This document shows, piece by piece, positions 15,401 through 47,394 of a stretch of DNA of 59,916 nt. A program made the position numbers and the translations under genes. Origin of the DNA: a virus; UHGV virus genome UHGV-0126570; one strand, given 5' to 3'. The notes under the pieces are model-generated. The model was not told the origin of the DNA. It did no database searches and was given only the letters and a program-made list of their open reading frames with translations. Each line of letters begins with the position of its first letter. Position 1 is the stretch's first letter.

Positions 15401-18400
15401 TGGCGAACGGTCATCATGACAAAAGAGCAATTCGCGTCTATCCCGCTACGAGAAGAAACCATTGAGGAAAACTCACAGCAAGCGGTCTTTAATGCTGTGG
15501 AAATGGGGCGTCTTGACCTGGCATCTGGCAAACACCGTGACGCGCAGAAGAAGAATAAGATTAAGGACCAGGCCGCAAATACCGGTACAACGAAGAAGCA
15601 GAATATCCCGTACTTTGAGGATATGAACTTCGATAGCGTAATTGCCGACGAAGGGCATAACTACCGCAACTCCTTTAGCGCCGGGCGCGAAGCGGGGCAA
15701 CTGGCATATTTGCCTAACCCGGCAGTATCCAAAATGGCCCGCGACATGGCTGTAAAAGCTGCGTACATGATGAAACGCAACAACGGGCGTGGTGTGGTTA
15801 TGCTGACGGCAACACCGCTGGTGAACAGCCCGATTGATGCTTTCAACATGCTGTCTACTGTCATTCCGCAGGAAGAGTGGATGCGCATGGGTATTGTTAC
15901 GCCGGATGATTTCGTTCGCGTGTTCGGTAAAACAGCCACAGTTCAGGTTCAGAAAATTTCCGGTGAGGTGGAAGAGAAGCAGGGACTGGTGGGCTTCCAG
16001 AACCTGGATGGTCTGCGTGGTATTTTCCATCGCTGGACTACTCTGAAGACTGCTGCGGACGTCGGGGCGACGGTAAAAATCCCTGATATTGTCGAGAATA
16101 CCTTGCAGATCCCGATGACAGGAGAGCAAGAGGCCATTTACGAAGAACTTCGTAAGCGTGCACAGGAGTTAAGTAGTAAAGATGCGCTGACGGTCGATGA
16201 AAACGGGCATATCACAAACGAAAAACCGGATGATTTCATCTTCTCCATCATCCGCGACATGGATAAGGTTGCTATAGATCCTGATCTGTATGCCAGTGCG
16301 ATTACATTCCAGTTCCCCGTTGAGCTTGCAGACAAGGTAAAAGCTATTGCTGATGCCCTGCCAAAAGTAGCTGGCGGTAAAGTGGCAGATGATGCAGACG
16401 AGGCCGAAGAAGATGGCGCTGGTGGGCTGGCCAGTACGCGTACCAGCAAGGTAGTGAAGACCACCTTTAGCGAACATCCGTCGCATGTTGAAATACGTGC
16501 TGGCATTGAACTGGAAGCTGAAATACTGAAGGCCATTGCGGCTGCCGGTATTGATATGCAGCAGGTATCACACCCCATCCCGCCGAAGTATGCCGCGCTG
16601 ATCGAAAACCTTCGTGAAGGTCTGAAGAACGGTAAACAAATCGTCTTCATTGATGAAAAAGCCCAGCACCAGAAGCTGCGCCGTATTATTGCCAGTGCAC
16701 TGCAAATGCCGGAGCAGGAGATAGGCATTATCAATGCGACGACAGTTAGCCAGGCTGGCGGCGTCAAGCTGAAGAAGGTGAATAAGCCGACTGAACCTAC
16801 GCCAAATAAAAACGGTGAATACAAAGAAGGTGCATGGGAAACCTACTACAGTAAACTTGCCCAATATGAGGATTATCTCTCAGCTAAAAATGATGCTGGC
16901 CTTGAGGGCATGGAAGGTATTGCCGCCGACTATAACGAAGGTCGCACGCGCATCATAATCTGTAACAAGAAGGCTGAAGTAGGTATTAACTTGCACATCG
17001 GTACAACCGATATCCACCATCTGACACTACCCTGGACTCCTGCCAGTATCGACCAACGTAATGGGCGCGGCGCTCGGGTAGGCTCACCACAAGAAAAGGT
17101 CAATGTTCACTACTATTGTGGCAAAGGCACATTTGATGACTTCCGTCTGGATACGCTGAAACGTAAGAAGGACTGGATCAATATGGTGATGACCTCCGAC
17201 ATGTCAGAGATCGCCAATGGTGATGCGGATGACGCAGATGAACGCGCCATTATGCTGGCGGCAAATCCGGAAGAACGCCGTGCAATCATGAGTCGTCAGG
17301 CGCAAGAGCGTGAAGAACGTCTGAAACTGAAAGCCCTACGCGAAGCCAATAATGCTCTCGATAACTACCTGAAAGCGGCGAATGCTGCCGGGAAAGATAT
17401 CGGCATGATGGAGACAGAACTGAAAAGCGCGATGGAGCAGGTAGAGCATTACCAGCGCAATCTTGACGGCCTGATTAAAGCGGGGACGAACAGGAACGGG
17501 CAGAAATATGTTCTGGAACAGTTGCGAGACTACAGAAAACGTGTGCGGGAGCTACGCTTTGCGATCACCAGAGCTAAAGACGCTGACACCGTTATGAAAC
17601 GTTCTCGTGGTGATCTGGAACGTGCGATTAAAGCCGGGGTTCTGGAGCTTGATGCCGATGTATTGCAGAACCCACAGGAGTATGTACGCACTGAGAAAAA
17701 TATCTTGTTGCACAAGGGCAGCCATTATCGCGCGATCATCGATGAGAATCACAATACGACAGCAATTGTTCGTGTTACCGCCATTGATGCGGAAAGGGGC
17801 GGGTGTACGTGCCGCATATCCTGGCTGGATGTGGCTAGTCGTTACTCTCGTTCTCCGGGGACGGCATTATTTTTGCCCTTTAACCTGATAATTGAATCGG
17901 TAACCTTTGAAGAGGGAGTTGCAGAATCGCGTGAAACAGCTGCACGTGGTGTTCAATGCCACCAGCTATCAACAACACTTACGCGCGATCAGTTCTATGA
18001 TGCTATTCGCAATGGGGTAATGAATGTCACTGCCGGGAAGCCTGGTAGAGTATGGGGCGGTGGTTCAGCTATTAAATACTGGGCTTATCGCACCGATGAT
18101 GGTCAGATTGCACTGTCATCGGCTTATGATGGCGTAATAGGTCAAAAAATCGGGCGAGCATCGGATATAGCGCCTGAGCGGTGGATTTACCCTGATGGCA
18201 ACGATGAGGCGCTGAAGCGTGAAGTGGCAAAAATACAAGCCAGTGATAACCCGCTGAATGTCGTGGACGGCGAGGGATTCCTCCAGGCATTGTATGGATA
18301 TGATTACATCCAGGGAATGCAGGCATGGGGGGCACAGGCCACGATGGATGATGTTTCCCAGGAGTTTGAAAACTGGATGGCAGGGCGTGGTTTGTCCGGT

Positions 18401-26022: not shown

Positions 26023-26598
26023 ATGTTAACGGCGAACGATAACGCGTATGCAGAAGCAGATCTCATATTGAGTGACTTCATCGGTCAGCGGGAACGCTGG
26101 ACACAAAAGCGAGAGGAACTTTATGCCTCGTTAGTTCGCAAAGGTGTCAACATTGAAACCGCTCAAAGCGGCGATATGACGGTAGTCAGTGTTGGATTAC
26201 ATGGTGTGAGCGTGTCCGCAGCCAATCATGAGCCATACGTAGCGTTATCCGAGTCGATGGCAAGGCTAATTAAGTTTCTGAAGCAAACAGAAGCCAATAA
26301 TGTTTTCATCGCCAAAAAGAACATCAATTTTTCTGCCGCCATGTTCTGGATGATGAAGGGGCTGGATGCCCGCCGGGCATCATGGCCTAAAGGGAGCTAT
26401 TTATCGATGTTCCGTGGCAGCATTGGCAGCAAAGAAAAGCTCTTCGAATTCTTGCCGGAAGAGGCATTCGATATTGTGGAAGGGTGCGATGTGATGGTTA
26501 TGCCTCGCCTGGTAATGATGAATGGGGATTTACAGGCGCAGACAGACTGGTTCGCAACTGGCGTGGATATTATCGCAACTGACTGGGAGGCATTCTGA
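26023..26598 (+). CDS. Fusion protein with C-terminal DUF2829-like (Tad2-like) domain
   Basis: C-terminal AAMFWMMKGLDARRASWPKGSYLSMF ... MPRLVMMNGDLQAQTDWFATGVDIIATDWEAF follows the DUF2829 signature as recalled from memory; N-terminal ~100 aa unassigned. Confidence 0.4.
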   Translation: MLTANDNAYAEADLILSDFIGQRERWTQKREELYASLVRKGVNIETAQSGDMTVVSVGLHGVSVSAANHEPYVALSESMARLIKFLKQTEANNVFIAKKNINFSAAMFWMMKGLDARRASWPKGSYLSMFRGSIGSKEKLFEFLPEEAFDIVEGCDVMVMPRLVMMNGDLQAQTDWFATGVDIIATDWEAF

Positions 26599-27098: not shown

Positions 27099-27491
27099 AT
27101 GGAGCATATCAGCAGCGCAGAAATTGCGGATATCATGATTAGGGCTGACTGCTATCTGACAGTCACCGAAATTACCACTCTAGCTAAAGAAAAATATCCT
27201 CACCTTCATGTTTCACGCGTAAGTGTAACCAACATCATTCGGCATTTTGTGCGGTCAAGCCGAGCTATTTGTGAGCTTGATGATCGTGTTTACCCACGGA
27301 AATACTGGTTGCATGGCCTGAACGGATATCAGTTCAAGGTGCGCGGGCGCACCCCTGAATACGGCAGTTTGCTGGTTAAAAACTGTAGCCGGAAGTCTGC
27401 AGAACTGGCGCGACAAGAGCAGCGCAAGCTGGTGGACATGGCTAATAAGCTGTGGAATGCCGCAGTTAAAAAGCGTGGTGTTGCTTTATGA
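27099..27491 (+). CDS. Hypothetical protein (130 aa)
   Basis: First gene after the operator-like palindrome; stop/start overlap with the pacA-like gene. Confidence 0.45.
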   Translation: MEHISSAEIADIMIRADCYLTVTEITTLAKEKYPHLHVSRVSVTNIIRHFVRSSRAICELDDRVYPRKYWLHGLNGYQFKVRGRTPEYGSLLVKNCSRKSAELARQEQRKLVDMANKLWNAAVKKRGVAL

Positions 27492-31669: not shown

Positions 31670-31703
31670 CTAACTTTAGATAATTGGCATTATTTAAAGT
31701 TAG
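31670..31703. other. lox-like recombination site (13-bp inverted arms, 8-bp spacer)
   Basis: CTAACTTTAGATA-ATTGGCAT-TATTTAAAGTTAG; arms are 12/13 inverted matches and resemble loxP arms (ATAACTTCGTATA); 152 bp upstream of the Cre-like gene. Confidence 0.6.
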
Positions 31704-31854
31704 GCTATAATCATGGGTAGATGATCAGTATTGACATCACTGAAAATACGTGCCTCGAATCAAAGGCTTGAATCTTGAAAATTAACTTATAGCTACCCTG
31801 TCATTTTTATATTTTTCGCGTAGCGTCATCTGTATATAGAGGTTAAATAGTTTC

Positions 31855-32883
31855 ATGAGTGAATTAATTATCTCTGGCAGTTCCGGTGGTTTTCTGCGCA
31901 ACATTGGCAAAGAGTACCAGGAAGCCGCAGAAAACTTTATGCGGTTCATGAATGACCAGGGGGCTTATGCGCCGAATACTTTGCGCGATCTCCGGTTAGT
32001 GTTTCACTCCTGGGCGAGATGGTGTCACGCTCGCCAGCTCGCCTGGTTCCCGATCTCACCAGAGATGGCCCGCGAGTATTTTCTTCAGCTGCATGATGCC
32101 GATCTGGCTTCGACCACCATTGATAAGCACTACGCCATGCTGAACATGCTGCTTTCGCATTGTGGCCTTCCGCCACTTTCGGATGATAAAAGTGTTTCTC
32201 TGGCTATGCGGCGCATCCGGCGCGAAGCGGCAACTGAAAAAGGCGAACGAACAGGCCAGGCTATACCGCTGCGGTGGGACGATCTGAAACTGCTCGACGT
32301 CCTGTTGTCCAGGTCAGAACGGCTGGTGGACCTGCGCAACCGGGCTTTTCTCTTTGTTGCATACAATACGCTGATGCGTATGTCGGAAATCTCGCGTATT
32401 CGTGTAGGAGATCTGGACCAAACAGGTGACACTGTCACGCTACATATTTCACACACGAAGACAATAACGACCGCCGCCGGGCTTGATAAGGTGCTTTCCC
32501 GTCGCACTACCGCTGTGCTGAATGACTGGCTGGATGTTTCCGGGCTTCGCGAACATCCTGACGCAGTGCTGTTCCCGCCGATACACCGTAGCAATAAGGC
32601 CAGGATCACGACAACGCCCCTTACTGCACCTGCAATGGAGAAAATATTCAGCGACGCCTGGGTGTTGCTGAATAAAAGAGATGCTACGCCAAACAAAGGA
32701 AGATACCGGACGTGGACCGGGCATAGTGCACGCGTCGGGGCCGCTATTGATATGGCTGAAAAGCAGGTGTCTATGGTGGAGATCATGCAGGAAGGAACCT
32801 GGAAGAAACCGGAAACACTTATGCGGTATCTTCGCCGTGGCGGCGTGTCTGTGGGGGCTAATAGCCGCCTGATGGATTCGTAA
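31855..32883 (+). CDS. cre: Cre-like tyrosine site-specific recombinase
   Basis: Alignable along its length with P1 Cre: SVSLAMRRIRRE, LRNRAFLFVAYNTLMRMSEISRIRVGDL, GHSARVGAAIDMA, C-terminal Tyr region. Confidence 0.85.
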   Translation: MSELIISGSSGGFLRNIGKEYQEAAENFMRFMNDQGAYAPNTLRDLRLVFHSWARWCHARQLAWFPISPEMAREYFLQLHDADLASTTIDKHYAMLNMLLSHCGLPPLSDDKSVSLAMRRIRREAATEKGERTGQAIPLRWDDLKLLDVLLSRSERLVDLRNRAFLFVAYNTLMRMSEISRIRVGDLDQTGDTVTLHISHTKTITTAAGLDKVLSRRTTAVLNDWLDVSGLREHPDAVLFPPIHRSNKARITTTPLTAPAMEKIFSDAWVLLNKRDATPNKGRYRTWTGHSARVGAAIDMAEKQVSMVEIMQEGTWKKPETLMRYLRRGGVSVGANSRLMDS

Positions 32884-32956
32884 ATTAAAATTCTAACACA
32901 TCTTTTTAGATTAACGCCTTTGCTGTAAAGTACCCTCGCCTATTTAGGAGGGTGCT

Positions 32957-33301
32957 TTGCAGAGTCAAATCACGGAATCAAGACGCTTCAAGGTGGATGG
33001 TTACACCGTAACCTTCGCCGCTGGTGTTAAGAACAGTCATGCTGTCGTTGTGTTCGGCATCATGACCGGGCTTGAGGCCGTCCCTGTGTTTACCCTCGAA
33101 AAAAACTGGCGAAATCTGGAGGAAGCAGAAAGCTACGTCCGGAAAGTAACCATCATTGCCGCCGAAAAACTCCTGGCCCACTATCAGGAAAATTATCGCA
33201 CTATGGTCGAGAAGATTAATCTCGCTTTCACTCGCCCCACTACCGGCTTTATTGCACCGGATACTAATGCAGGTCGATATCCGGCAAGGGGGCGTCGGTG
33301 A
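32957..33301 (+). CDS. Hypothetical protein (114 aa), first gene of cre-proximal accessory operon
   Basis: TTG start with AGGAGGG RBS. Confidence 0.4.
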   Translation: MQSQITESRRFKVDGYTVTFAAGVKNSHAVVVFGIMTGLEAVPVFTLEKNWRNLEEAESYVRKVTIIAAEKLLAHYQENYRTMVEKINLAFTRPTTGFIAPDTNAGRYPARGRR

Positions 33302-33774
33302 AAACTTATTACCCATCTCTGAATTGTTACCCGTCTTCCTATCCAGAATTATCCGGGAAGCTGTTAGCTCTATTAGCTAAAGCACCTACGGAATGGTTTA
33401 AGCCAGTCGTTATCAATCCACACTTCCTGGATTACGGATCTGTTCGCACTCGTAACGAACTCAAAAACCTACTGGCGCATGGATTCATTCGACACCGTGC
33501 CGGGAAAGGCTATCAGTTAGCGATTGCGCCAGAAGAGGCCGTGCGGCTATTCGCATATCGTGACAGCCAGACAAAAGCTCGGGTAATAGCTCAAATACTT
33601 CATAACGGCAGCACCTATGCCCGCCAGTTTGGCGGCGACACGTCGCAGTTCTTGCGGGCGGTGCGATCGCTGGAGGAGCAAGGAGTTATTGAAAGTTCCT
33701 GTCTTCCTGTTCCTACCGTTCCACATATCAAACGTCGGGTTTACACCTTCACGCAGAGAGCTAAAAAACAATGA
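33298..33774 (+). CDS. Hypothetical protein with winged-helix-like segments
   Basis: GTG start overlapping the upstream stop; two helix-turn-wing-like stretches (NLLAHGFIRHRAGKGYQLA, LRAVRSLEEQGVIES). Confidence 0.4.
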   Translation: MKTYYPSLNCYPSSYPELSGKLLALLAKAPTEWFKPVVINPHFLDYGSVRTRNELKNLLAHGFIRHRAGKGYQLAIAPEEAVRLFAYRDSQTKARVIAQILHNGSTYARQFGGDTSQFLRAVRSLEEQGVIESSCLPVPTVPHIKRRVYTFTQRAKKQ

Positions 33775-34265
33775 TTTACGTAAAAGTGAAACGCCTACAT
33801 CCGGCAGCAAAACTTCCAGCTTATGCCACCTCCGGATCGGCGGCGATGGATTTTGAGGCTGTTGAAATAAAACCATGCGTCGATAGCAATGGTGCAATTT
33901 CCTCAAGCTGGTGGGTGTATACCGGACTGGCTATGGAGATCCCGCCCGGCTGGTGTCTGAAACTCTATCCGCGATCAGGATTGGGCTGCAAAAAACATAC
34001 TCGCCTGGCTAACTGCGTAGGAATTATCGACTCCGATTATCGCGGCGAAATCATGGCAAAACTGATTACTGATCCAGGCGGGGAAGGCGTTTGTCTCAAG
34101 CCTGGAATGGCTGTCATGCAAGGAATTTTTGAGCGTGTTGAACAAGTCTCACTAGTCGAGGTTGAGGAACTCAACGAAACGGAGCGTGGTGCTGGTGGCT
34201 TTGGTAGCACATCGGAAGGCCACTTTGAAATTAAGCGTTCACCGCTTCAGTACGAAAAGTTATAA
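33771..34265 (+). CDS. dut: dUTP diphosphatase (trimeric dUTPase)
   Basis: Motifs AAMDF, RSGLG, GIIDSDYRGEI, ERGAGGFGSTS in canonical order. Confidence 0.85.
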   Translation: MIYVKVKRLHPAAKLPAYATSGSAAMDFEAVEIKPCVDSNGAISSSWWVYTGLAMEIPPGWCLKLYPRSGLGCKKHTRLANCVGIIDSDYRGEIMAKLITDPGGEGVCLKPGMAVMQGIFERVEQVSLVEVEELNETERGAGGFGSTSEGHFEIKRSPLQYEKL

Positions 34266-34279
34266 GCAGAGAAAAGACT

Positions 34280-34957
34280 ATGAATAACAAGCCAACGAAA
34301 GAGCTTTTTAAGCTCCTTCCCAAATACAAAGCTCACAAAAACGTTAGTGCATCGAAAATCAAAAATGTTGTTATTTTCGGAGTAACTGATACCCCACTTT
34401 GGGGCAGCATCGAACTCGTTGAACCTAAAGGGGCAACAGTTTGTGTTGACGCAATGTTTTTACAAAAACACCGACCAAAAACTGGCGGGTATCTGATCGT
34501 TTATGAAAACGGTTATCTGTTCTATGCCCCGGAGAAACCATTTGAGGAACGCTATGGCCTGGTTAACGACGCCTCCAAAAATGGAACCACGGTCATCATT
34601 ACGGATGACAACGGCGAGATGATTAATCTTACCGGGAGCGTAACTATTTCTGCTGGTGGCATCACCACCCAGCAAGAAGAAATCGACCTTGAAGCAGCCG
34701 ACTTTTCTGACGCGCTGATGTGGCTGAAGGATGGCAAGAAAGTTGCTCGACGCGGGTGGAACGGCGAAAACCAATTTTGCTGGCTGGTTCCTGAAGGACA
34801 GTACCCGGCACGAATGGAAGCCATTAAGGGATATTTCCCCGGCGACCTCGTTCCGTATGGTGCTTATTTCGCCTTAAAAAATGCACAAGGTGTAGTTGTT
34901 CCGTGGGTGCCTTCAGTTGGCGACCTGCTGGCCTGTGACTGGTTTGTTGTGGAGTGA
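34280..34957 (+). CDS. Fusion protein: unknown N-terminal domain plus C-terminal DUF2829-like (Tad2-like) domain
   Basis: C-terminal DALMWLKDGKKVARRGWNGENQFCWLVPEG ... VVPWVPSVGDLLACDWFVVE follows the DUF2829 signature (A..W.K.GKKV.RRGWNG ... PW.pS..DLLA.DW.vvE) as recalled from memory. Confidence 0.45.
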   Translation: MNNKPTKELFKLLPKYKAHKNVSASKIKNVVIFGVTDTPLWGSIELVEPKGATVCVDAMFLQKHRPKTGGYLIVYENGYLFYAPEKPFEERYGLVNDASKNGTTVIITDDNGEMINLTGSVTISAGGITTQQEEIDLEAADFSDALMWLKDGKKVARRGWNGENQFCWLVPEGQYPARMEAIKGYFPGDLVPYGAYFALKNAQGVVVPWVPSVGDLLACDWFVVE

Positions 34958-34963
34958 TTTGAC

Positions 34964-35731
34964 ATGGAAAGCACTAAAACAATTCAATACCGCTTGCGTA
35001 ATGGCCTGCTGGTGGCTGTTAACGCCGACATGTCACTGCCGTTTGACACGATTGAACGCACTATCATGACGTATCTCGGCTTTAATGAAGAGCTGAATGA
35101 AGAGCATGGCGTAGCTATATGGAGTGATGCAGACAGCGGCGTTCGTCGTTACATCACCGCCAGGGGCAAAGACTACTCTCTGGATGAACTGTTTGCCCTT
35201 GCGCAGTCTTTCGAATGTGTAGCATTAGACCTGTTTAATGATCCTGCTATAGCGCAACGACTTATACGCGAGCTTGGGCTATCCGTTACACCAATTATAT
35301 TTAAAAATGGCAGCCTGACTGGCACATGGCGCGTAGAACGCATCTCAAACTACCTTCCATATAACCGACAGTTAAATGGAGTAATCTCCGGCGTTAATCA
35401 GCCCGTAGCGTGTGAAAATGTAAACCTAGTTGTCGCTGTTTTGGCAACCGCATGTCGTGTTATCGGTTTGGCTAAACAGGCATTTATTCATTTCCCAAAT
35501 GGTGCAGAAGGTAGCGCAGAGATTATCGCGTGTGATTTCGAATTTACCTGGATGCTACGCGAATATCTGGACCAAACAGTATTCCGTGCCGAAGAACTGG
35601 ATATGTATATCACGTCAACGATTCCAGACGATGTGCGAGCTGAAGCAATCGCTACAGCCAGGGCGAAATGCCGTGCGGCGATTGCAGAACAGGCCAAAGA
35701 AGAAGTTAAGGAAGTGGCAGATGGCGACTAA
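34964..35731 (+). CDS. Hypothetical protein (255 aa), partner of the terminase paralog
   Basis: Translationally coupled to the downstream TerL-like gene; no similarity to PacA. Confidence 0.45.
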   Translation: MESTKTIQYRLRNGLLVAVNADMSLPFDTIERTIMTYLGFNEELNEEHGVAIWSDADSGVRRYITARGKDYSLDELFALAQSFECVALDLFNDPAIAQRLIRELGLSVTPIIFKNGSLTGTWRVERISNYLPYNRQLNGVISGVNQPVACENVNLVVAVLATACRVIGLAKQAFIHFPNGAEGSAEIIACDFEFTWMLREYLDQTVFRAEELDMYITSTIPDDVRAEAIATARAKCRAAIAEQAKEEVKEVADGD

Positions 35732-36815
35732 GAGCAATATTTATAAAGATCCGCGCTGGCTGTCGCTGGTGGAGAAATATAAAGACAATTGGGTACTGGC
35801 AGCAAAAGAATTGTTTGATATTGATTTAAGCCACCAGCAACAACAAATTGTTGAAGCTATACAGCCCAATAATGCAAAAGCTACTGTCACCACTCCGTAT
35901 GGGATCGGACGACCGCAAGTGCTTGCTGTTATTAGTACCCTTTATACGATTATGTATCCTGATTCCCGGACAGTAATTGTTTATCCAAAATCAAATGTTT
36001 GCAAAAGAGGAATTGTTGCATATGTGTGGCAATGTTGGGAGGCATTGCTGAAAAAACAACCTTTTATCATTGAGTATTTTAAGGTCGGTGATAGCGGTCT
36101 GATGTTCAATGAATTTTGGGGAATGTGCTTTTGTAACTACCGCCTTAACTATGAAGATAGCATTGCAGGTCACTACGCCGACCATCTTTTATTCATTATT
36201 GTGGATTCCGCACATATCAGCGATCGGGCATACAGCATTGTGTGGGCAAGCATGACTAGTGGTGATTCACGCATATTGCTCACTTCAATTCCGTCACCAG
36301 AGGAAATAGGCTTTTTTTATGATTCACATCATGGACGTGCTTTAGCTGAAGATAATCCGAGTGGTGTATATAAAGCCATTAAGCTGAGCGCGGAGGATTC
36401 ACCATTTATTACCCAAGAATATCTTGATCATTTTGCCGAAAGGTATGGCGGGCGAAATAGTGATGACTATCGTCGTATGATTCTTGGTGAGTTCCCTGGT
36501 ATTAGGGAGGCTGTTCTTGAATCAGATATGCCGAAGACAATGCGCTTTTCGATGCCTGATGGTAGTGAATGGACAATGCCATTACGAGTGATAGCCCGGC
36601 ATCATGCGCAGCACCACGCCAAAAAACATGGCGTCACGACATTAGAATGGTTGAAATCGCACACTATTCCACTCTTCACTGCAGATCACAATGCTATCGT
36701 TGAGTGGGCAAAAACAATTCCGTGGGAGCATGTCGCTGAATATGCTCACATGCTAAAACCGCCGAAAGACAGGCGCGAAATTAGCTGGCTGACAGCCGAA
36801 AAAATCATTGAATGA
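35721..36815 (+). CDS. Terminase large-subunit (PacB) N-domain paralog with degenerate Walker A/B and no nuclease domain
   Basis: Aligns with PacB residues ~10-300 (DPRW..., SHQQQ, FYDSHH, SPF, YGGR, FP), but Walker A is TTPYGIGRP instead of TSGHGTGKS and Walker B LLFIIVDSAH instead of LLLILDEAS; protein ends after ~364 aa. Confidence 0.6.
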   Translation: MATKSNIYKDPRWLSLVEKYKDNWVLAAKELFDIDLSHQQQQIVEAIQPNNAKATVTTPYGIGRPQVLAVISTLYTIMYPDSRTVIVYPKSNVCKRGIVAYVWQCWEALLKKQPFIIEYFKVGDSGLMFNEFWGMCFCNYRLNYEDSIAGHYADHLLFIIVDSAHISDRAYSIVWASMTSGDSRILLTSIPSPEEIGFFYDSHHGRALAEDNPSGVYKAIKLSAEDSPFITQEYLDHFAERYGGRNSDDYRRMILGEFPGIREAVLESDMPKTMRFSMPDGSEWTMPLRVIARHHAQHHAKKHGVTTLEWLKSHTIPLFTADHNAIVEWAKTIPWEHVAEYAHMLKPPKDRREISWLTAEKIIE

Positions 36816-36860
36816 TATCAACAAAAAGCCCGCCTGGTCTGGCGGGCTTCTTTATGCGCC

Positions 36861-39870: not shown

Positions 39871-40144
39871 TGATATTAACCTTTATCGCAAATACCTTAA
39901 CCGGATTCTCTCCAAAGTGCGGATGTGTGATTGTCTTGATTTCATATCCGTCATACGGGACGTCTATTCTGCGGCTGGAATCGTCGCGCTTCGGGTATCC
40001 CTTTGTGATAATCAGGCGGTCATATTCCCGGAACATAATTCGCTTATTCCAGTAGTCATTGCACAGGCGATACTCTTCCGTTTTCTCCCCGCGAATCATG
40101 GCATCGAAGTATTCACCTTTGACGGCAAGTTGCAGGTTAGCCAT
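39863..40144 (-). CDS. Hypothetical protein, possible ASCH/PUA-like fold
   Basis: MANLQLAVKGEYFDAMIRGEKTEEYR...ITHPHFG pattern; start chosen at the ATG overlapping the upstream stop. Fold assignment is tentative. Confidence 0.3.
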   Translation of the reverse strand: MANLQLAVKGEYFDAMIRGEKTEEYRLCNDYWNKRIMFREYDRLIITKGYPKRDDSSRRIDVPYDGYEIKTITHPHFGENPVKVFAIKVNING

Positions 40145-40404
40145 TACCGCACCTCCAGTCTCCATACCGCCTGACCAATCCGGCTGGCATAGGTATCTTT
40201 GGATACTGCTCCGTCTTTAGCCAGCTCCATAAGAATTTTGCGCAAATCTGCCGAACGCCATTCTTCATCAGGAAATTCCTTCTCCATTGCCAACCGCAGA
40301 TTCCAGGTTGCTATCGTGAATGGATATTCCCCGCCGAGAGCTTTCTCTTGCAGGGCAGAACGGGAACGCATCACCTGCAAAACCTTCTCTTTTACATCCA
40401 TCAT
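40144..40404 (-). CDS. Hypothetical protein (86 aa)
   Basis: ORF with ATGA coupling to neighbours. Confidence 0.35.
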   Translation of the reverse strand: MMDVKEKVLQVMRSRSALQEKALGGEYPFTIATWNLRLAMEKEFPDEEWRSADLRKILMELAKDGAVSKDTYASRIGQAVWRLEVR

Positions 40405-41057
40405 TTTGCCTCCTGCGGCGGTTCTGGTAGTGGCATCCAGTGTGTGACATTGCTAATCAGACCATATTCATTAGTTTGAGGATGGTTGCCGTTATCGTCT
40501 CCGTATTTAAGACTCTCCATAAAACCATAATGCTTATTCCCATTAACGCTCACAAAGCCGTAATAAGCTGGTATAACGCCGATCTCACACGTAATCAGCA
40601 AAGGAAAACTAGTTCTCCAATTTAGCTCGCCGATTACAGGCATTCTCTCACTACAGCTTATCCAACTATCCTGAGTTACCGGAGAGTTGCCCGATAGCTG
40701 GTTCAACTTGTAAGTTTGGCTTACAGGTTCGGCTTTCAGTTCTGCTATGCGCTTTTTTGCTGCTTCCAGCTCAACGCGCAGCTTCCCTACCGTTAGCGCA
40801 ATATCCTCGTTCTCCTGGTCGCGGAGTTTGATGTATTGCTGGTTTTTTTCCCGTTCATCCAGTAGTGCCAAAGCAACCTTTGGATTAAAGGCAGCAATAA
40901 ATTCAGCGTTGTTTTTCAGAACGTGTTGCGCAATGGCCTGACTACTTAGTCGGACCTCATAACCACGTGCGCCACGGTGTGGTTTATATGAGTCCCAGTC
41001 TCCCCACGTTGCTTTCTCTGCCGCCTCACGCAGTGCCTGGTAATTAATTTCGCTCAC
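40401..41057 (-). CDS. Ea22-like protein with C-terminal DUF551-like motif
   Basis: N-terminal MSEINYQALREAAEKAT (Ea22-type), coiled coil, C-terminal THWMPLPEPP. Confidence 0.5.
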   Translation of the reverse strand: MSEINYQALREAAEKATWGDWDSYKPHRGARGYEVRLSSQAIAQHVLKNNAEFIAAFNPKVALALLDEREKNQQYIKLRDQENEDIALTVGKLRVELEAAKKRIAELKAEPVSQTYKLNQLSGNSPVTQDSWISCSERMPVIGELNWRTSFPLLITCEIGVIPAYYGFVSVNGNKHYGFMESLKYGDDNGNHPQTNEYGLISNVTHWMPLPEPPQEAK

Positions 41058-46484: not shown

Positions 46485-47063
46485 ATGCAGAAACAGAGTT
46501 ATTGGGAGAAACAGAGACAAAAAGCCATGCAAAAATTGGCTGACCCAGCCTGGCGAGAGGAACAAAGGGCAAAGCGCCTTCAACAAGCTCAACGCCAGCA
46601 GCAGCGAGCGAGAGAAAAAGCCGCATCGCCTGAATATCGGCAAAAGAAAATTGAAAAAGCAAAGCAATATGAACAGCGGAGAAAAGATAAAGCGGTATCC
46701 GCTCCGCCCAAAAAAACACGCACGTCACGCGGCCTGAAGGGCAGATCACTCACAGCCGATGAACGCCGGATACAGACCGCTATCGGTACTCTCCCCTGCA
46801 TTGCCTGCCATATTCACGGGCAACATAGCCCAGTGGTATCCCTGCACCATATCTTCGGGAGAACGGCAGAGAACGCGCATAAATATGTCCTCCCTTTGTG
46901 TAAATGGCACCACCAGTACGCAGCGCCAGCCGAGGTCCGAGAACAATATCCCTGGCTGGTCCCTGTTCATGCTGATGGAAAAATAGGCGGAAAAGCAGAT
47001 TTCATGCGGCACAATGCCGATGAAATGACGTTGTATCAGATGGCGATTGAATTGATAAATTAG
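46485..47063 (+). CDS. Ref-like HNH endonuclease (basic disordered N-terminus plus His-Me finger core)
   Basis: N-terminal ~90 aa highly basic (QKQRQKAMQK...RRKDK); C-terminal LPCIACH..HGQH..SLHHIFGR..H..LPLCKWHH. Architecture matches P1 Ref; the identity is an inference. Confidence 0.4.
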   Translation: MQKQSYWEKQRQKAMQKLADPAWREEQRAKRLQQAQRQQQRAREKAASPEYRQKKIEKAKQYEQRRKDKAVSAPPKKTRTSRGLKGRSLTADERRIQTAIGTLPCIACHIHGQHSPVVSLHHIFGRTAENAHKYVLPLCKWHHQYAAPAEVREQYPWLVPVHADGKIGGKADFMRHNADEMTLYQMAIELIN

Positions 47064-47394
47064 TTTTCTAACATTTTAAGTTGAATTGTAAATTTCTCCG
47101 ATGTACATTCACTACCGATTGGCACACCGGTCAACTTTTTGAGACAAACTGTTTAGTTTTTCGTATTATTGCCGCCGCTATACCTATGGCGGTGCAATAT
47201 AGGTGGCTGAAAAGCCCCCGTTGACTCACGGTGTTCCAGCCTTTATTGCGCCGCCACCAGACCGTGGAACAGTCGATGGCGGCTCCGAAAGCAAGGAGTC
47301 ACTACACTATGAACAGCTACTGTCTTTTCCCATCACTCGTTGTCCGCCACTCACGCGATAATCTGCATTCTTTACTCGCGCTGGGGGTGTCAAA

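What the first reader, a model, noticed from the sequence alone, without database searches (positions are those of the whole stretch)
34280..34957. DUF2829/Tad2-like domain fused to an unknown N-terminal domain, next to dUTPase
The last ~90 residues (DALMWLKDGKKVARRGWNGENQFCWLVPEG...VVPWVPSVGDLLACDWFVVE) match the signature of DUF2829, the family that includes the Thoeris anti-defence protein Tad2, which sequesters immune signalling nucleotides. Free-standing DUF2829 proteins are ~80-90 aa; here the domain follows a ~135-aa unknown domain. This could be a nucleotide-signal sponge with extra targeting or enzymatic function.
Basis: partly seen in the sequence, partly recalled or inferred. Interest (0 to 1): 0.7.

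Follow-up and report, generated by a model that had tools for sequence, protein, structure and literature searches.

The report
Two-domain Tad2 anti-defence sponge protein
A gene on a D6-like E. coli phage-plasmid joins a known phage "sponge" domain (Tad2), which soaks up bacterial immune alarm molecules, to a small beta-barrel domain of unknown role that is a habitual partner of at least five different phage sponge families.

Summary

The new part is the N-terminus. Residues ~11-95 form a confidently predicted OB-like beta-barrel with no Pfam family. It belongs to a very large family of mostly stand-alone ~90-aa phage proteins (about 5,900 clusters). It is remotely related to the OB domain of the phage L decoration protein Dec. 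It is also homologous (hhalign 97%) to the uncharacterised N-terminal domain of the recently described RyR-Tad sponge.

This domain is fused or adjacent to five sponge families (Tad2, Acb4, Sequestin, Acb2/Tad1-hairpin, RyR), far more often next to them than further away.

Nothing suggests an enzymatic function. The dUTPase adjacency is specific to the D6 lineage.

Best reading: a Tad2 sponge plus a second, accessory anti-defence or self-association module. This is a new variant of a known kind.

The parts
34280..34957 (+). Complete ORF, 225 aa plus stop: a two-domain Tad2 fusion protein
   Evidence: ORF list and sequence. It is 99.4% identical to the RefSeq CDS WP_121841009.1, 'DUF2829 domain-containing protein', on plasmid NZ_CP034790. 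phrog_872 matches the full length at E=2.9e-57.
34310..34564 (+). N-terminal OB-like beta-barrel domain (residues ~11-95). Its motifs are LPKYKAHK.V.A.KI and KHRP..GGYLIVYENGYLFYAPEKPFEERYG.
34565..34684 (+). Variable beta-rich linker (residues ~96-135; NDASKNGTTVIITDDNGEMINLTGSVTISAGGITTQQEE)
   Evidence: pLDDT is 48-63. The segment is absent or replaced in many homologues, and there are two allelic types in P1/D6-like plasmids. Part of it aligns with the spike region of Dec.
34685..34954 (+). Tad2 (DUF2829) sponge domain (residues 136-225) with pocket residues W160, N161, G162, W209, S212 and D215
33771..34265 (+). dUTPase gene immediately upstream (14-bp gap)
   Evidence: PF00692 at E=1.7e-14 and phrog_135 at E=5e-62. 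It is the neighbour only in D6-like elements.
34964..35731 (+). IsaA homologue immediately downstream (6-bp gap). It is the conserved partner of the Tad2-fusion gene in both D6-like and P1-like elements.
   Evidence: phrog_2326 at E=2.7e-133. D6 and SJ46 annotate it as 'similar to P1 isaA'. P1 IsaA aligns with it directly. It follows the Tad2-fusion gene in all 8 plasmids fetched.
31684..31711 (+). Sigma-70 promoter-like site (TTGGCA-16-TATAAT, 11/12) upstream of the cre-like recombinase gene. It is a candidate promoter for the co-directional gene string 31855-36815.
   Evidence: Consensus scan only. The genes are tightly spaced or overlapping on the same strand.
36832..36847 (+). Terminator-like hairpin plus T-run after the last gene of the string
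   Evidence: Consensus scan only.

Best explanation
The gene encodes a modular anti-defence protein of a D6-like (P1-family) phage-plasmid.

The C-terminal 90 residues are a Tad2-family sponge. By analogy with solved Tad2 proteins it should form a homotetramer through helix alpha1 and the beta2/alpha2 interface. It should trap TIR-made ADP-ribose-type alarm molecules in pockets lined by W160/N161 and W209/S212/D215, so that the Thoeris effector is never switched on.

Its nearest characterised relative is ModTad2. ModTad2 binds His-ADPR (type II Thoeris) and, in a second pocket formed by the beta2-beta3 insertion, cUMP/cCMP (Pycsar). The window's insertion has nearly the same length and a similar sequence. 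His-ADPR and/or 3'cADPR, possibly with cyclic mononucleotides, are therefore the most likely ligands.

The N-terminal ~85 residues are an OB-like beta-barrel joined by a flexible linker. It belongs to a very large family of mostly stand-alone ~90-aa phage proteins that are recurrently fused or adjacent to five sponge families. I take it to be a second, separable anti-defence module that self-associates, as its homologue does in RyR-Tad, and has its own still unknown ligand or partner. The product would then be a 'two-in-one' inhibitor.

Shown here: the domain identities, predicted folds, conserved residues, family size, fusion statistics, allele shuffling and purifying selection. Inferred: oligomeric state, ligands, any activity of the N-domain, and co-transcription with cre-dut-isaA.
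For: Tad2 domain:
- Pfam 80 bits; PDB phmmer hit to ModTad2 at E=6e-21.
- Pocket residues are conserved and invariant across 28 homologues.
- ModTad2 function comes from the literature.
- dN/dS is 0.26, and about 0 among alleles of the window's type.
- The domain is kept when the N-domain is deleted (D6 orf114) or replaced (the dUTPase-Tad2 fusion P0056).

N-domain:
- Confident fold.
- Large family that is mostly stand-alone.
- Conserved His/Lys/Tyr-rich motifs.
- Fusion partners Tad2, Acb4 (PF13876), Sequestin (PF21825), Acb2/Tad1 hairpin (PF24729) and RyR. These are all validated sponge families.
- In 58 distinct viral loci, 9 carry a sponge domain within 1 kb, 7 of them in the same ORF. The density is 11.7 per 100 kb within 1 kb against 0.5 per 100 kb at 1-5 kb (binomial p=2e-7).
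- Homology to the RyR-Tad N-domain.
- Stand-alone members sit in arrays of small early or accessory genes, not in head modules.
- dN/dS is 0.44, below 1.
- Full-length two-domain alleles predominate.
Against: - No binding or infection experiment exists for this protein, so the Tad2 ligand specificity cannot be read from sequence. I could not obtain the His-ADPR contact residues of ModTad2 from the papers' text.
- The only tested relative of the N-domain, RyR-Tad gp68_N, had no apparent activity against type I Thoeris and looks like a dimerisation element.
- Phage D6 itself and at least 3 plasmids carry an in-frame deletion of the OB core, so the N-domain is dispensable.
- The window's allele departs from the family consensus at four near-invariant positions (N77, F81, A83, R91).
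- The N-domain is also fused to non-sponge domains (DUF4406, DUF5662, DUF551, AlpA) and to many unknown extensions.
- The top hits used for the fusion census are biased towards relatives of a Tad2 fusion.
Confidence: 0.55

Rival explanations
1. The N-domain has no target of its own. It is a self-association or scaffolding module, as in the domain-swapped dimer of RyR-Tad, that raises the valency, stability or solubility of whichever sponge it is attached to. All anti-defence activity resides in the Tad2 domain.
For: In RyR-Tad, gp68_N alone was inactive while gp68_C alone was active, and the N-domain contributes to dimerisation by beta1 strand exchange. The window's N-domain is homologous to it. 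The natural in-frame deletion of the OB core in D6 retains Tad2. Constraint on the N-domain is weaker than on Tad2 (dN/dS 0.44 against 0.26).
Against: Most of the ~5,900 family clusters are stand-alone ~90-aa proteins, which a pure helper domain would not be. Tandem N-domain proteins also exist (P0130, P0134). Tad2, Acb4 and Sequestin already oligomerise by themselves. The family keeps a polar/aromatic motif (H19, K20, H64, Y71, Y75, Y79, E89, Y92), which is more typical of a binding site than of a packing surface. gp68_N was tested only against type I Thoeris.
Confidence: 0.3
2. The N-domain is a Dec-like capsid-binding module. It tethers the Tad2 sponge to the virion or procapsid, either as a decoration protein or as cargo delivered with the DNA.
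For: The phage L decoration protein Dec is the closest solved structure and the only PDB sequence hit. The linker aligns with part of the Dec spike region. Homologues in Pseudomonas phages Jeremy and Dolphis are annotated 'capsid decoration protein'. The Ralstonia phage GP4 homologue gp05 lies between the portal and major head genes.
Confidence: 0.07
3. The N-domain is a classical OB-fold that binds nucleic acid (ssDNA or RNA). It would localise the sponge to replicating phage DNA or carry out an unrelated DNA-metabolism function.
Against: These are generic fold-level matches with 5-15% identity. The conserved motif is not a known ssDNA-binding signature. The specific association is with sponge domains, not with replication proteins.
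Confidence: 0.06
4. The DUF2829 domain acts as an anti-CRISPR (AcrIIA7-like) rather than as a signal sponge.
For: AcrIIA7 is a DUF2829 protein and matches at E=1e-9 to 1e-11.
Against: The literature re-interprets DUF2829 proteins as signal sponges, and binding to Cas9 was never shown. HgmTad2 (= AcrIIA7) itself binds gcADPR and cyclic dinucleotides. From general knowledge, not tested here, E. coli lacks type II-A CRISPR-Cas. The window's domain is much closer to ModTad2.
Confidence: 0.02

Closest known systems
ModTad2 / MoTad2 (Myroides odoratus prophage Tad2; PDB 9EIB, 8V3E)
   Different: ModTad2 is a free-standing 89-aa protein, whereas here the domain is the C-terminal 40% of a 225-aa protein. 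Ligand binding (His-ADPR, cUMP/cCMP) is shown for ModTad2 only.
RyR-Tad (Pectobacterium phage vB_PatP_CB1 gp68; Fedorova et al. 2026 preprint)
   Same: The same architecture: an N-terminal beta domain of the YK[CS]HK...GY.VVY...SP..F..G family followed by a sponge domain. The N-domains are homologous (hhalign 97.1%, E=7.4e-11).
   Different: The sponge domain there is RyR-like (all-alpha, dimeric), not Tad2. The gp68 N-domain is a short variant (~70 aa) that lacks the beta2-beta3 hairpin. gp68 has been tested experimentally; the window's protein has not.
Sponge-sponge fusion proteins (Acb4-Tad2 of Pasteurella phage Pm86, Tad2-Sequestin, Acb4-Sequestin; Tal et al. 2025, Fedorova et al. 2026)
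   Same: A Tad2 domain joined by a linker to another small module, in a phage accessory gene. Close relatives of the window's protein carry a further C-terminal Sequestin (PF21825) domain (P0061, P0071, P0078, P0097).
   Different: In those proteins both modules are validated sponges. Here the partner module has no demonstrated ligand, and the window's protein has no Sequestin or Acb4 domain.
Phage L decoration protein Dec (PDB 6E3C)
   Same: It has the closest solved fold to the N-domain and is the only PDB sequence match, sharing the P..GGYL.....G.L.Y.S...FE..Y motif.
   Different: The homology is remote. Dec lacks the YKCHK motif and H64. Dec is a capsid-binding trimer with a C-terminal spike. 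The genomic context here is non-structural.
SPO1 Tad2 and HgmTad2/AcrIIA7 (PDB 8SME-G, 8KBI-M)
   Same: The same fold and the same gcADPR-pocket residues.
   Different: Identity is only 32-40%, and the insertion between beta2 and beta3 differs in length. That insertion determines the second pocket.

Membership tests
Tad2 / DUF2829 (PF11195) signal-sponge family | Match to the family profile above the curated threshold | tested here: met
   80 bits against a cut-off of 25, E=1.8e-22, residues 141-224 covering profile positions 2-73 of 73.
Tad2 / DUF2829 (PF11195) signal-sponge family | [quoted passage not shown] | tested here: met
Tad2 / DUF2829 (PF11195) signal-sponge family | Conserved ligand-pocket residues: W-N(-G) in the beta1-beta2 loop and W..S..D before the last helix | tested here: met
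   W160/N161/G162 and W209/S212/D215 align with SPO1 W25/N26, W73/S76/D79 and with HgmTad2 W21/N22/G23, W87/S90/D93. W160, W209, S212 and D215 are invariant in 28 homologues.
Tad2 / DUF2829 (PF11195) signal-sponge family | Homotetramer with inter-protomer pockets | not testable with these tools
   Only monomer AF2 prediction was available. Published Acb4-Tad2 and Tad2-PF21825 fusions are modelled as tetramers.
Tad2 / DUF2829 (PF11195) signal-sponge family | Binds and sequesters (without degrading) a TIR- or cyclase-derived signal, and rescues phage from Thoeris | not testable with these tools
   This needs biochemistry and plaque assays.
ModTad2 clade (type II Thoeris / His-ADPR binders) | Closer to ModTad2 than to type I-specific Tad2 proteins | tested here: met
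   45-46% identity and E=6e-21 to ModTad2, against 32-40% identity and E=1e-9 to 1e-12 to SPO1, HgmTad2 and SptTad2.
ModTad2 clade (type II Thoeris / His-ADPR binders) | Residues that contact the histidine moiety of His-ADPR | not tested
   The residue list appears only in figures and is not in the accessible text.
N-domain family (unnamed; includes the RyR-Tad gp68 N-terminal domain) | Profile-level homology across both motif blocks (LP.YK[CS]HK.V.A.KI and KH.P..GGY.V.Y.DGY.S.SP..FE.GY) | tested here: met
   phmmer finds 1,867 representatives. My family HMM scores the window's domain at E=1e-30. hhalign of the family profile against gp68(1-75) gives 97.1%. The window's allele has substitutions A18, N77, F81, A83 and R91.
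N-domain family (unnamed; includes the RyR-Tad gp68 N-terminal domain) | Domain-swapped dimer of five-stranded beta sheets | not testable with these tools
   This is reported for the gp68 crystal structure only. That structure is not in the PDB copy searched.
Phage L Dec-type capsid decoration proteins | OB-fold domain homologous to Dec | tested here: met
Phage L Dec-type capsid decoration proteins | C-terminal trimeric beta-helix spike | tested here: inconclusive
   Residues 96-126 align with the start of the Dec spike, but the model has pLDDT 48-63 there and the segment is followed by Tad2.
Phage L Dec-type capsid decoration proteins | Structural gene context or virion component | tested here: not met
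   The gene lies between dut (or ssb) and isaA in an accessory string. Stand-alone relatives lie among small early genes. Capsid binding itself is not testable here.
Double-sponge fusion proteins (sensu Tal et al. 2025) | Two domains, each from an experimentally validated sponge family | tested here: not met
   Only Tad2 is a validated family. No Acb4, Sequestin, Acb2-hairpin or RyR domain is present in this ORF. The N-domain is unvalidated.

The most novel reading that the evidence does not exclude
The N-terminal OB-like domain defines a new, very large family of phage anti-defence proteins (about 5,900 clusters at 90% identity, mostly ~90-aa stand-alone proteins). It would most plausibly be a new immune-signal sponge, or an inhibitor acting on a signal or protein not yet assayed. 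It escaped the published Pfam-based 'guilt-by-fusion' screen because it has no Pfam model. The window's protein would then be a true double inhibitor, and its independently reassorting N-domain and Tad2 alleles would be a combinatorial counter-defence repertoire in E. coli phage-plasmids.
Probability: 0.3. Interest if true: 0.8.

Novelty: new variant of a known kind. Interest (0 to 1): 0.55.

Why it matters
Tad2 sponges are one of the main ways phages silence Thoeris and related signalling immunity. This gene shows that P1/D6-type phage-plasmids carry such a sponge. These elements are common in E. coli, Salmonella and Shigella and often carry resistance genes. About 4% of complete E. coli genomes have the gene.

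More importantly, the partner domain is a large, unannotated protein family that sits at the centre of the sponge fusion network, with partners Tad2, Acb4, Sequestin, Acb2/Tad1-hairpin and RyR. The same logic, fusion to known sponges, recently uncovered Sequestin. The family is therefore a concrete, testable candidate for a new anti-defence activity, or else a general oligomerisation device for sponges.

Natural deletion and shuffled alleles of the window's gene already provide the constructs needed to test this.

Tried and rejected
1. I suspected that IS1 in phage P1 had disrupted this gene. That is wrong. P1 simply lacks the gene: its isaA joins the upstream leader directly to the homologue of the window's downstream ORF. 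Only RCS47 has a copy cut by IS26.

2. N-domain = Lockin or TadIV-1. Rejected. Lockin is a curved beta hexamer absent from sequenced model phages, TadIV-1 is helical, and no such PDB hit appeared.

3. Enzymatic N-domain. There is no Pfam, NCBIfam, PDB or BFVD match to any enzyme.

4. A functional link to dUTPase. The adjacency holds only in D6-like elements; ssb takes that place in P1-like ones. I did note a recurrence of the adjacency in Bacillus phage Shanette.

5. A search for a P1 C1 operator in the window found no match.

6. A single-sequence word-indexed search with the N-domain found only close relatives. The exhaustive phmmer search and the profile search were needed.

7. The afdb50 fold library was unavailable.

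8. I could not extract the His-ADPR contact residues of ModTad2 from the papers' text or supplements.

9. P0177 (N-domain plus Acb2/Tad1 hairpin) has no PDB sequence match.

10. The exact N-domain motifs are absent from the tested-candidate tables of Tal et al. They occur only as N-terminal extensions in the list of Sequestin homologues.

Full report
**Observation**

The window has an intact ORF at 34280-34957 (+) of 225 aa with exactly the residues quoted. Pfam PF11195 (Tad2-like, formerly DUF2829) matches residues 141-224 at 80 bits, against a cut-off of 25, with E=1.8e-22. Nothing in Pfam or NCBIfam covers residues 1-135. The upstream ORF 33771-34265 is a dUTPase.

**What the element is**

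The region is 98% identical to Escherichia phage D6 and 99.6% identical to the E. coli plasmid pTB423. It matches 238 plasmid records, almost all of them non-mobilisable ~90-100 kb P1/D6-type phage-plasmids of Escherichia, Salmonella and Shigella. RefSeq already labels the gene 'DUF2829 domain-containing protein'. It is present in 213 of 5,426 complete E. coli genomes, nearly always on plasmids.

The gene belongs to a co-directional, tightly packed string: a cre-like recombinase, two unknown ORFs, dut, this gene, an isaA homologue, and a 364-aa ORF. A strong sigma-70-like site (31684-31711) precedes the string and a terminator-like hairpin (36832-36847) follows it. Co-transcription is inferred only.

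In P1-like IncY plasmids and in phage SJ46 the same gene lies between ssb and isaA. The conserved unit is therefore [this gene + isaA], not [dut + this gene]. P1 itself lacks the gene, and in RCS47 it is cut by IS26.

**C-terminal domain**

The residues that hold gcADPR are all present: W160, N161, G162, W209, S212 and D215. In SPO1 Tad2 these are W25, N26, W73, S76 and D79; in HgmTad2 they are W21, N22, G23, W87, S90 and D93. W160, W209, S212 and D215 are invariant in the family alignment.

ModTad2 sequesters His-ADPR, the type II Thoeris signal. In a second pocket formed by the beta2-beta3 insertion it also binds cUMP/cCMP, the Pycsar signals. The window's insertion aligns with that of ModTad2 with a single one-residue gap. 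Membership in the Tad2 family is therefore met on profile, fold and pocket residues. Oligomeric state and ligand are untested.

**N-terminal region**

The model splits the region into two parts. Residues ~11-95 form a confident beta-barrel: pLDDT 82-95, with mean pLDDT 87.7 and pTM 0.80 when modelled alone. Residues 96-137 form a low-confidence beta-rich linker.

An exhaustive phmmer search of 1.84 billion representatives finds 1,867 relatives. A family profile finds 5,901 clusters at 90% identity. Most are stand-alone proteins of 85-105 aa with no annotation. The family has two sharply conserved blocks: LP.YK[CS]HK.V.A.KI and KH.P..GGY.V.Y.DGY.S.SP..FE.GY.

Stand-alone members lie in arrays of small ORFs beside replication genes, not in head modules. 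One member, Ralstonia GP4 gp05, does lie between the portal and major head genes. Two Pseudomonas phage homologues are annotated 'capsid decoration protein'.

**The fusion network**

Among the best 146 representatives, the identifiable partner domains were:
- Tad2
- PF13876
- PF21825
- PF24729 (Acb2/Tad1 hairpin)
- RyR
- single cases of DUF4406, DUF5662, DUF551 and AlpA

The literature identifies PF13876 as the Acb4 sponge and PF21825 as Sequestin. Sequestin was itself discovered because it is fused to Tad2 and Acb4. RyR-like phage proteins were shown in 2026 to be gcADPR sponges.

For an independent sample I used 58 distinct non-P1 viral contigs that carry the N-domain. Nine have one of these sponge domains within 1 kb, seven of them in the same ORF. 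The density is 11.7 hits per 100 kb within 1 kb, against 0.5 per 100 kb at 1-5 kb (binomial p=2e-7). This was found even with small home-made HMMs.

Close relatives of the window's protein add further modules: a PGDYG-like barrel and a C-terminal Sequestin domain.

**An experimentally touched relative**

[quoted passage not shown] The N fragment alone had no apparent anti-type I Thoeris activity. In the crystal it forms a beta1-swapped five-stranded sheet that contributes to dimerisation.

I fetched gp68 and found that its first 70 residues are a short variant of the window's N-domain family. hhalign gives 97.1% and E=7.4e-11, and both motif blocks are present. The supplementary list of Sequestin homologues in Tal et al. 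also contains N-domain-Sequestin fusions, but the text does not discuss the domain.

**Population genetics of the gene**

Ten alleles from plasmids and phages show a mosaic. Three N-domain types, two linker types and three Tad2 types are reassorted. The Tad2 types differ mainly in the beta2-beta3 insertion, and one has RREWKGEK in place of RRGWNGEN. The conserved QEEIDLEAADFSDALMWLK junction lies between the reassorting parts.

Median pairwise dN/dS is 0.44 for the N-domain, 0.50 for the linker and 0.26 for Tad2. It is about 0 among Tad2 alleles of the window's type. Both domains are therefore under purifying selection, Tad2 more strongly.

The N-domain is dispensable. Phage D6 itself and at least three plasmids carry an in-frame deletion of residues ~21-99. 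Another variant fuses the dUTPase directly to the Tad2 domain. The window's N-domain keeps H19, K20, H64, Y71, Y75, Y79, E89 and Y92, but it deviates from consensus at N77, F81, A83 and R91.

**Mechanism and rivals**

The best-supported account has two parts. The Tad2 domain is a sponge for TIR-derived ADPR-type signals, with my confidence in family-level function about 0.85 and specific ligands uncertain. The N-domain is a separable accessory module of the sponge network.

I favour an autonomous second activity combined with self-association. The reasons are that the family is overwhelmingly stand-alone and keeps a polar/aromatic motif.

The main rival is that the N-domain is only an oligomerisation or scaffold device. 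The RyR-Tad data and the natural deletions support that rival. A Dec-like capsid-tethering role, nucleic-acid binding and an anti-CRISPR role are each unlikely, for the reasons given under rival explanations.

**Novelty**

A Tad2 domain in a phage-plasmid is a new member of a known family, and it is already annotated as such. Multi-module sponges are known. I found no description in the searchable literature of the recognition that this particular partner domain is a huge unannotated family, is homologous to the RyR-Tad N-domain and remotely to Dec, and is linked to five sponge families. I therefore rate the finding a new variant of a known kind, with moderate interest and a clear experimental path.

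Noticed in passing
window 26023-26598 (+): The same element encodes a second, divergent Tad2-domain protein. It is 191 aa, with PF11195 at 38.7 bits (cut-off 25), E=1.5e-9, over residues 102-190, behind an unrelated ~100-aa N-terminal region. The pocket motifs are altered (SWPKG instead of GWNG; W..T..D). It lies just upstream of the late promoter activator gene (27099-27491, PF25716). Among sequenced phages it is found only in D6.
   Followed up: partly
window 34280-34957 compared with L011-L018 and L002: The gene is a recombinational mosaic. Three N-domain allele types, two linker types and three Tad2 allele types are reassorted among P1/D6-like plasmids. The Tad2 alleles differ in the beta2-beta3 insertion, which in other Tad2 proteins forms the second ligand pocket. 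One allele replaces the pocket Asn (RGWNG becomes REWKG).
   Followed up: partly
L001:2594-3034 (phage D6 orf114); P0056: There are natural domain-deletion variants. D6 and at least 3 plasmids have an in-frame deletion of residues ~21-99 (the OB core) and keep the linker plus Tad2. Another cluster (P0056; 15 member sequences) fuses the dUTPase directly to the linker and Tad2.
   Followed up: yes
L019 (phage P1, 21569-22531) and L006 (RCS47, 15495-15960): Phage P1 lacks this gene. Its isaA ORF consists of the ssb-distal leader joined directly to the homologue of the window's downstream ORF. In RCS47 the gene is truncated at about residue 152 by IS26. The SJ46 annotation (281 aa) probably starts 56 codons too early.
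   Followed up: yes
L100:918-1788 (Bacillus phage Shanette gp137-gp138): A free-standing 90-aa Tad2 gene lies immediately downstream of a dUTPase gene in an unrelated SPO1-like phage. This echoes the dut-Tad2 adjacency of D6-like elements. A Vibrio phage relative is annotated as a MazG pyrophosphatase and carries an N-domain-like barrel.
   Followed up: no
P0059, P0070, P0071, P0097 (relatives of the window's protein): Some homologues insert another small beta-barrel module (W.RKP....GDWI..G..GE.YPC.P.IF..TYE, PGDYG-like) between the N-domain and Tad2, and add a C-terminal Sequestin (PF21825) domain. This gives three- or four-module proteins.
   Followed up: partly
window ~40137-40964 and ~46769-47392 (- strand; from the annotation of L003): DUF551 and DUF4406 proteins are encoded as separate genes in the accessory-gene array of this window. 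Elsewhere these two domains occur fused to the N-domain family (P0175, P0224).
   Followed up: no
window 34964-35731 and 35721-36815 (+): The isaA homologue (phrog_2326, no known function) is the constant downstream partner of the Tad2-fusion gene in both the D6-like and the P1-like lineage. The following 364-aa ORF also has no family. Either could be a further accessory or anti-defence gene.
   Followed up: no
L004:2992-3267 (Ralstonia phage GP4 gp05); L005:3995-4489 (Pseudomonas phage Jeremy): A stand-alone N-domain homologue sits between the portal and major head genes of GP4, next to a CsrA-like regulator. A 164-aa homologue in phage Jeremy is annotated 'capsid decoration protein' although it lies among non-structural genes. 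The annotation was probably transferred from Dec.
   Followed up: partly
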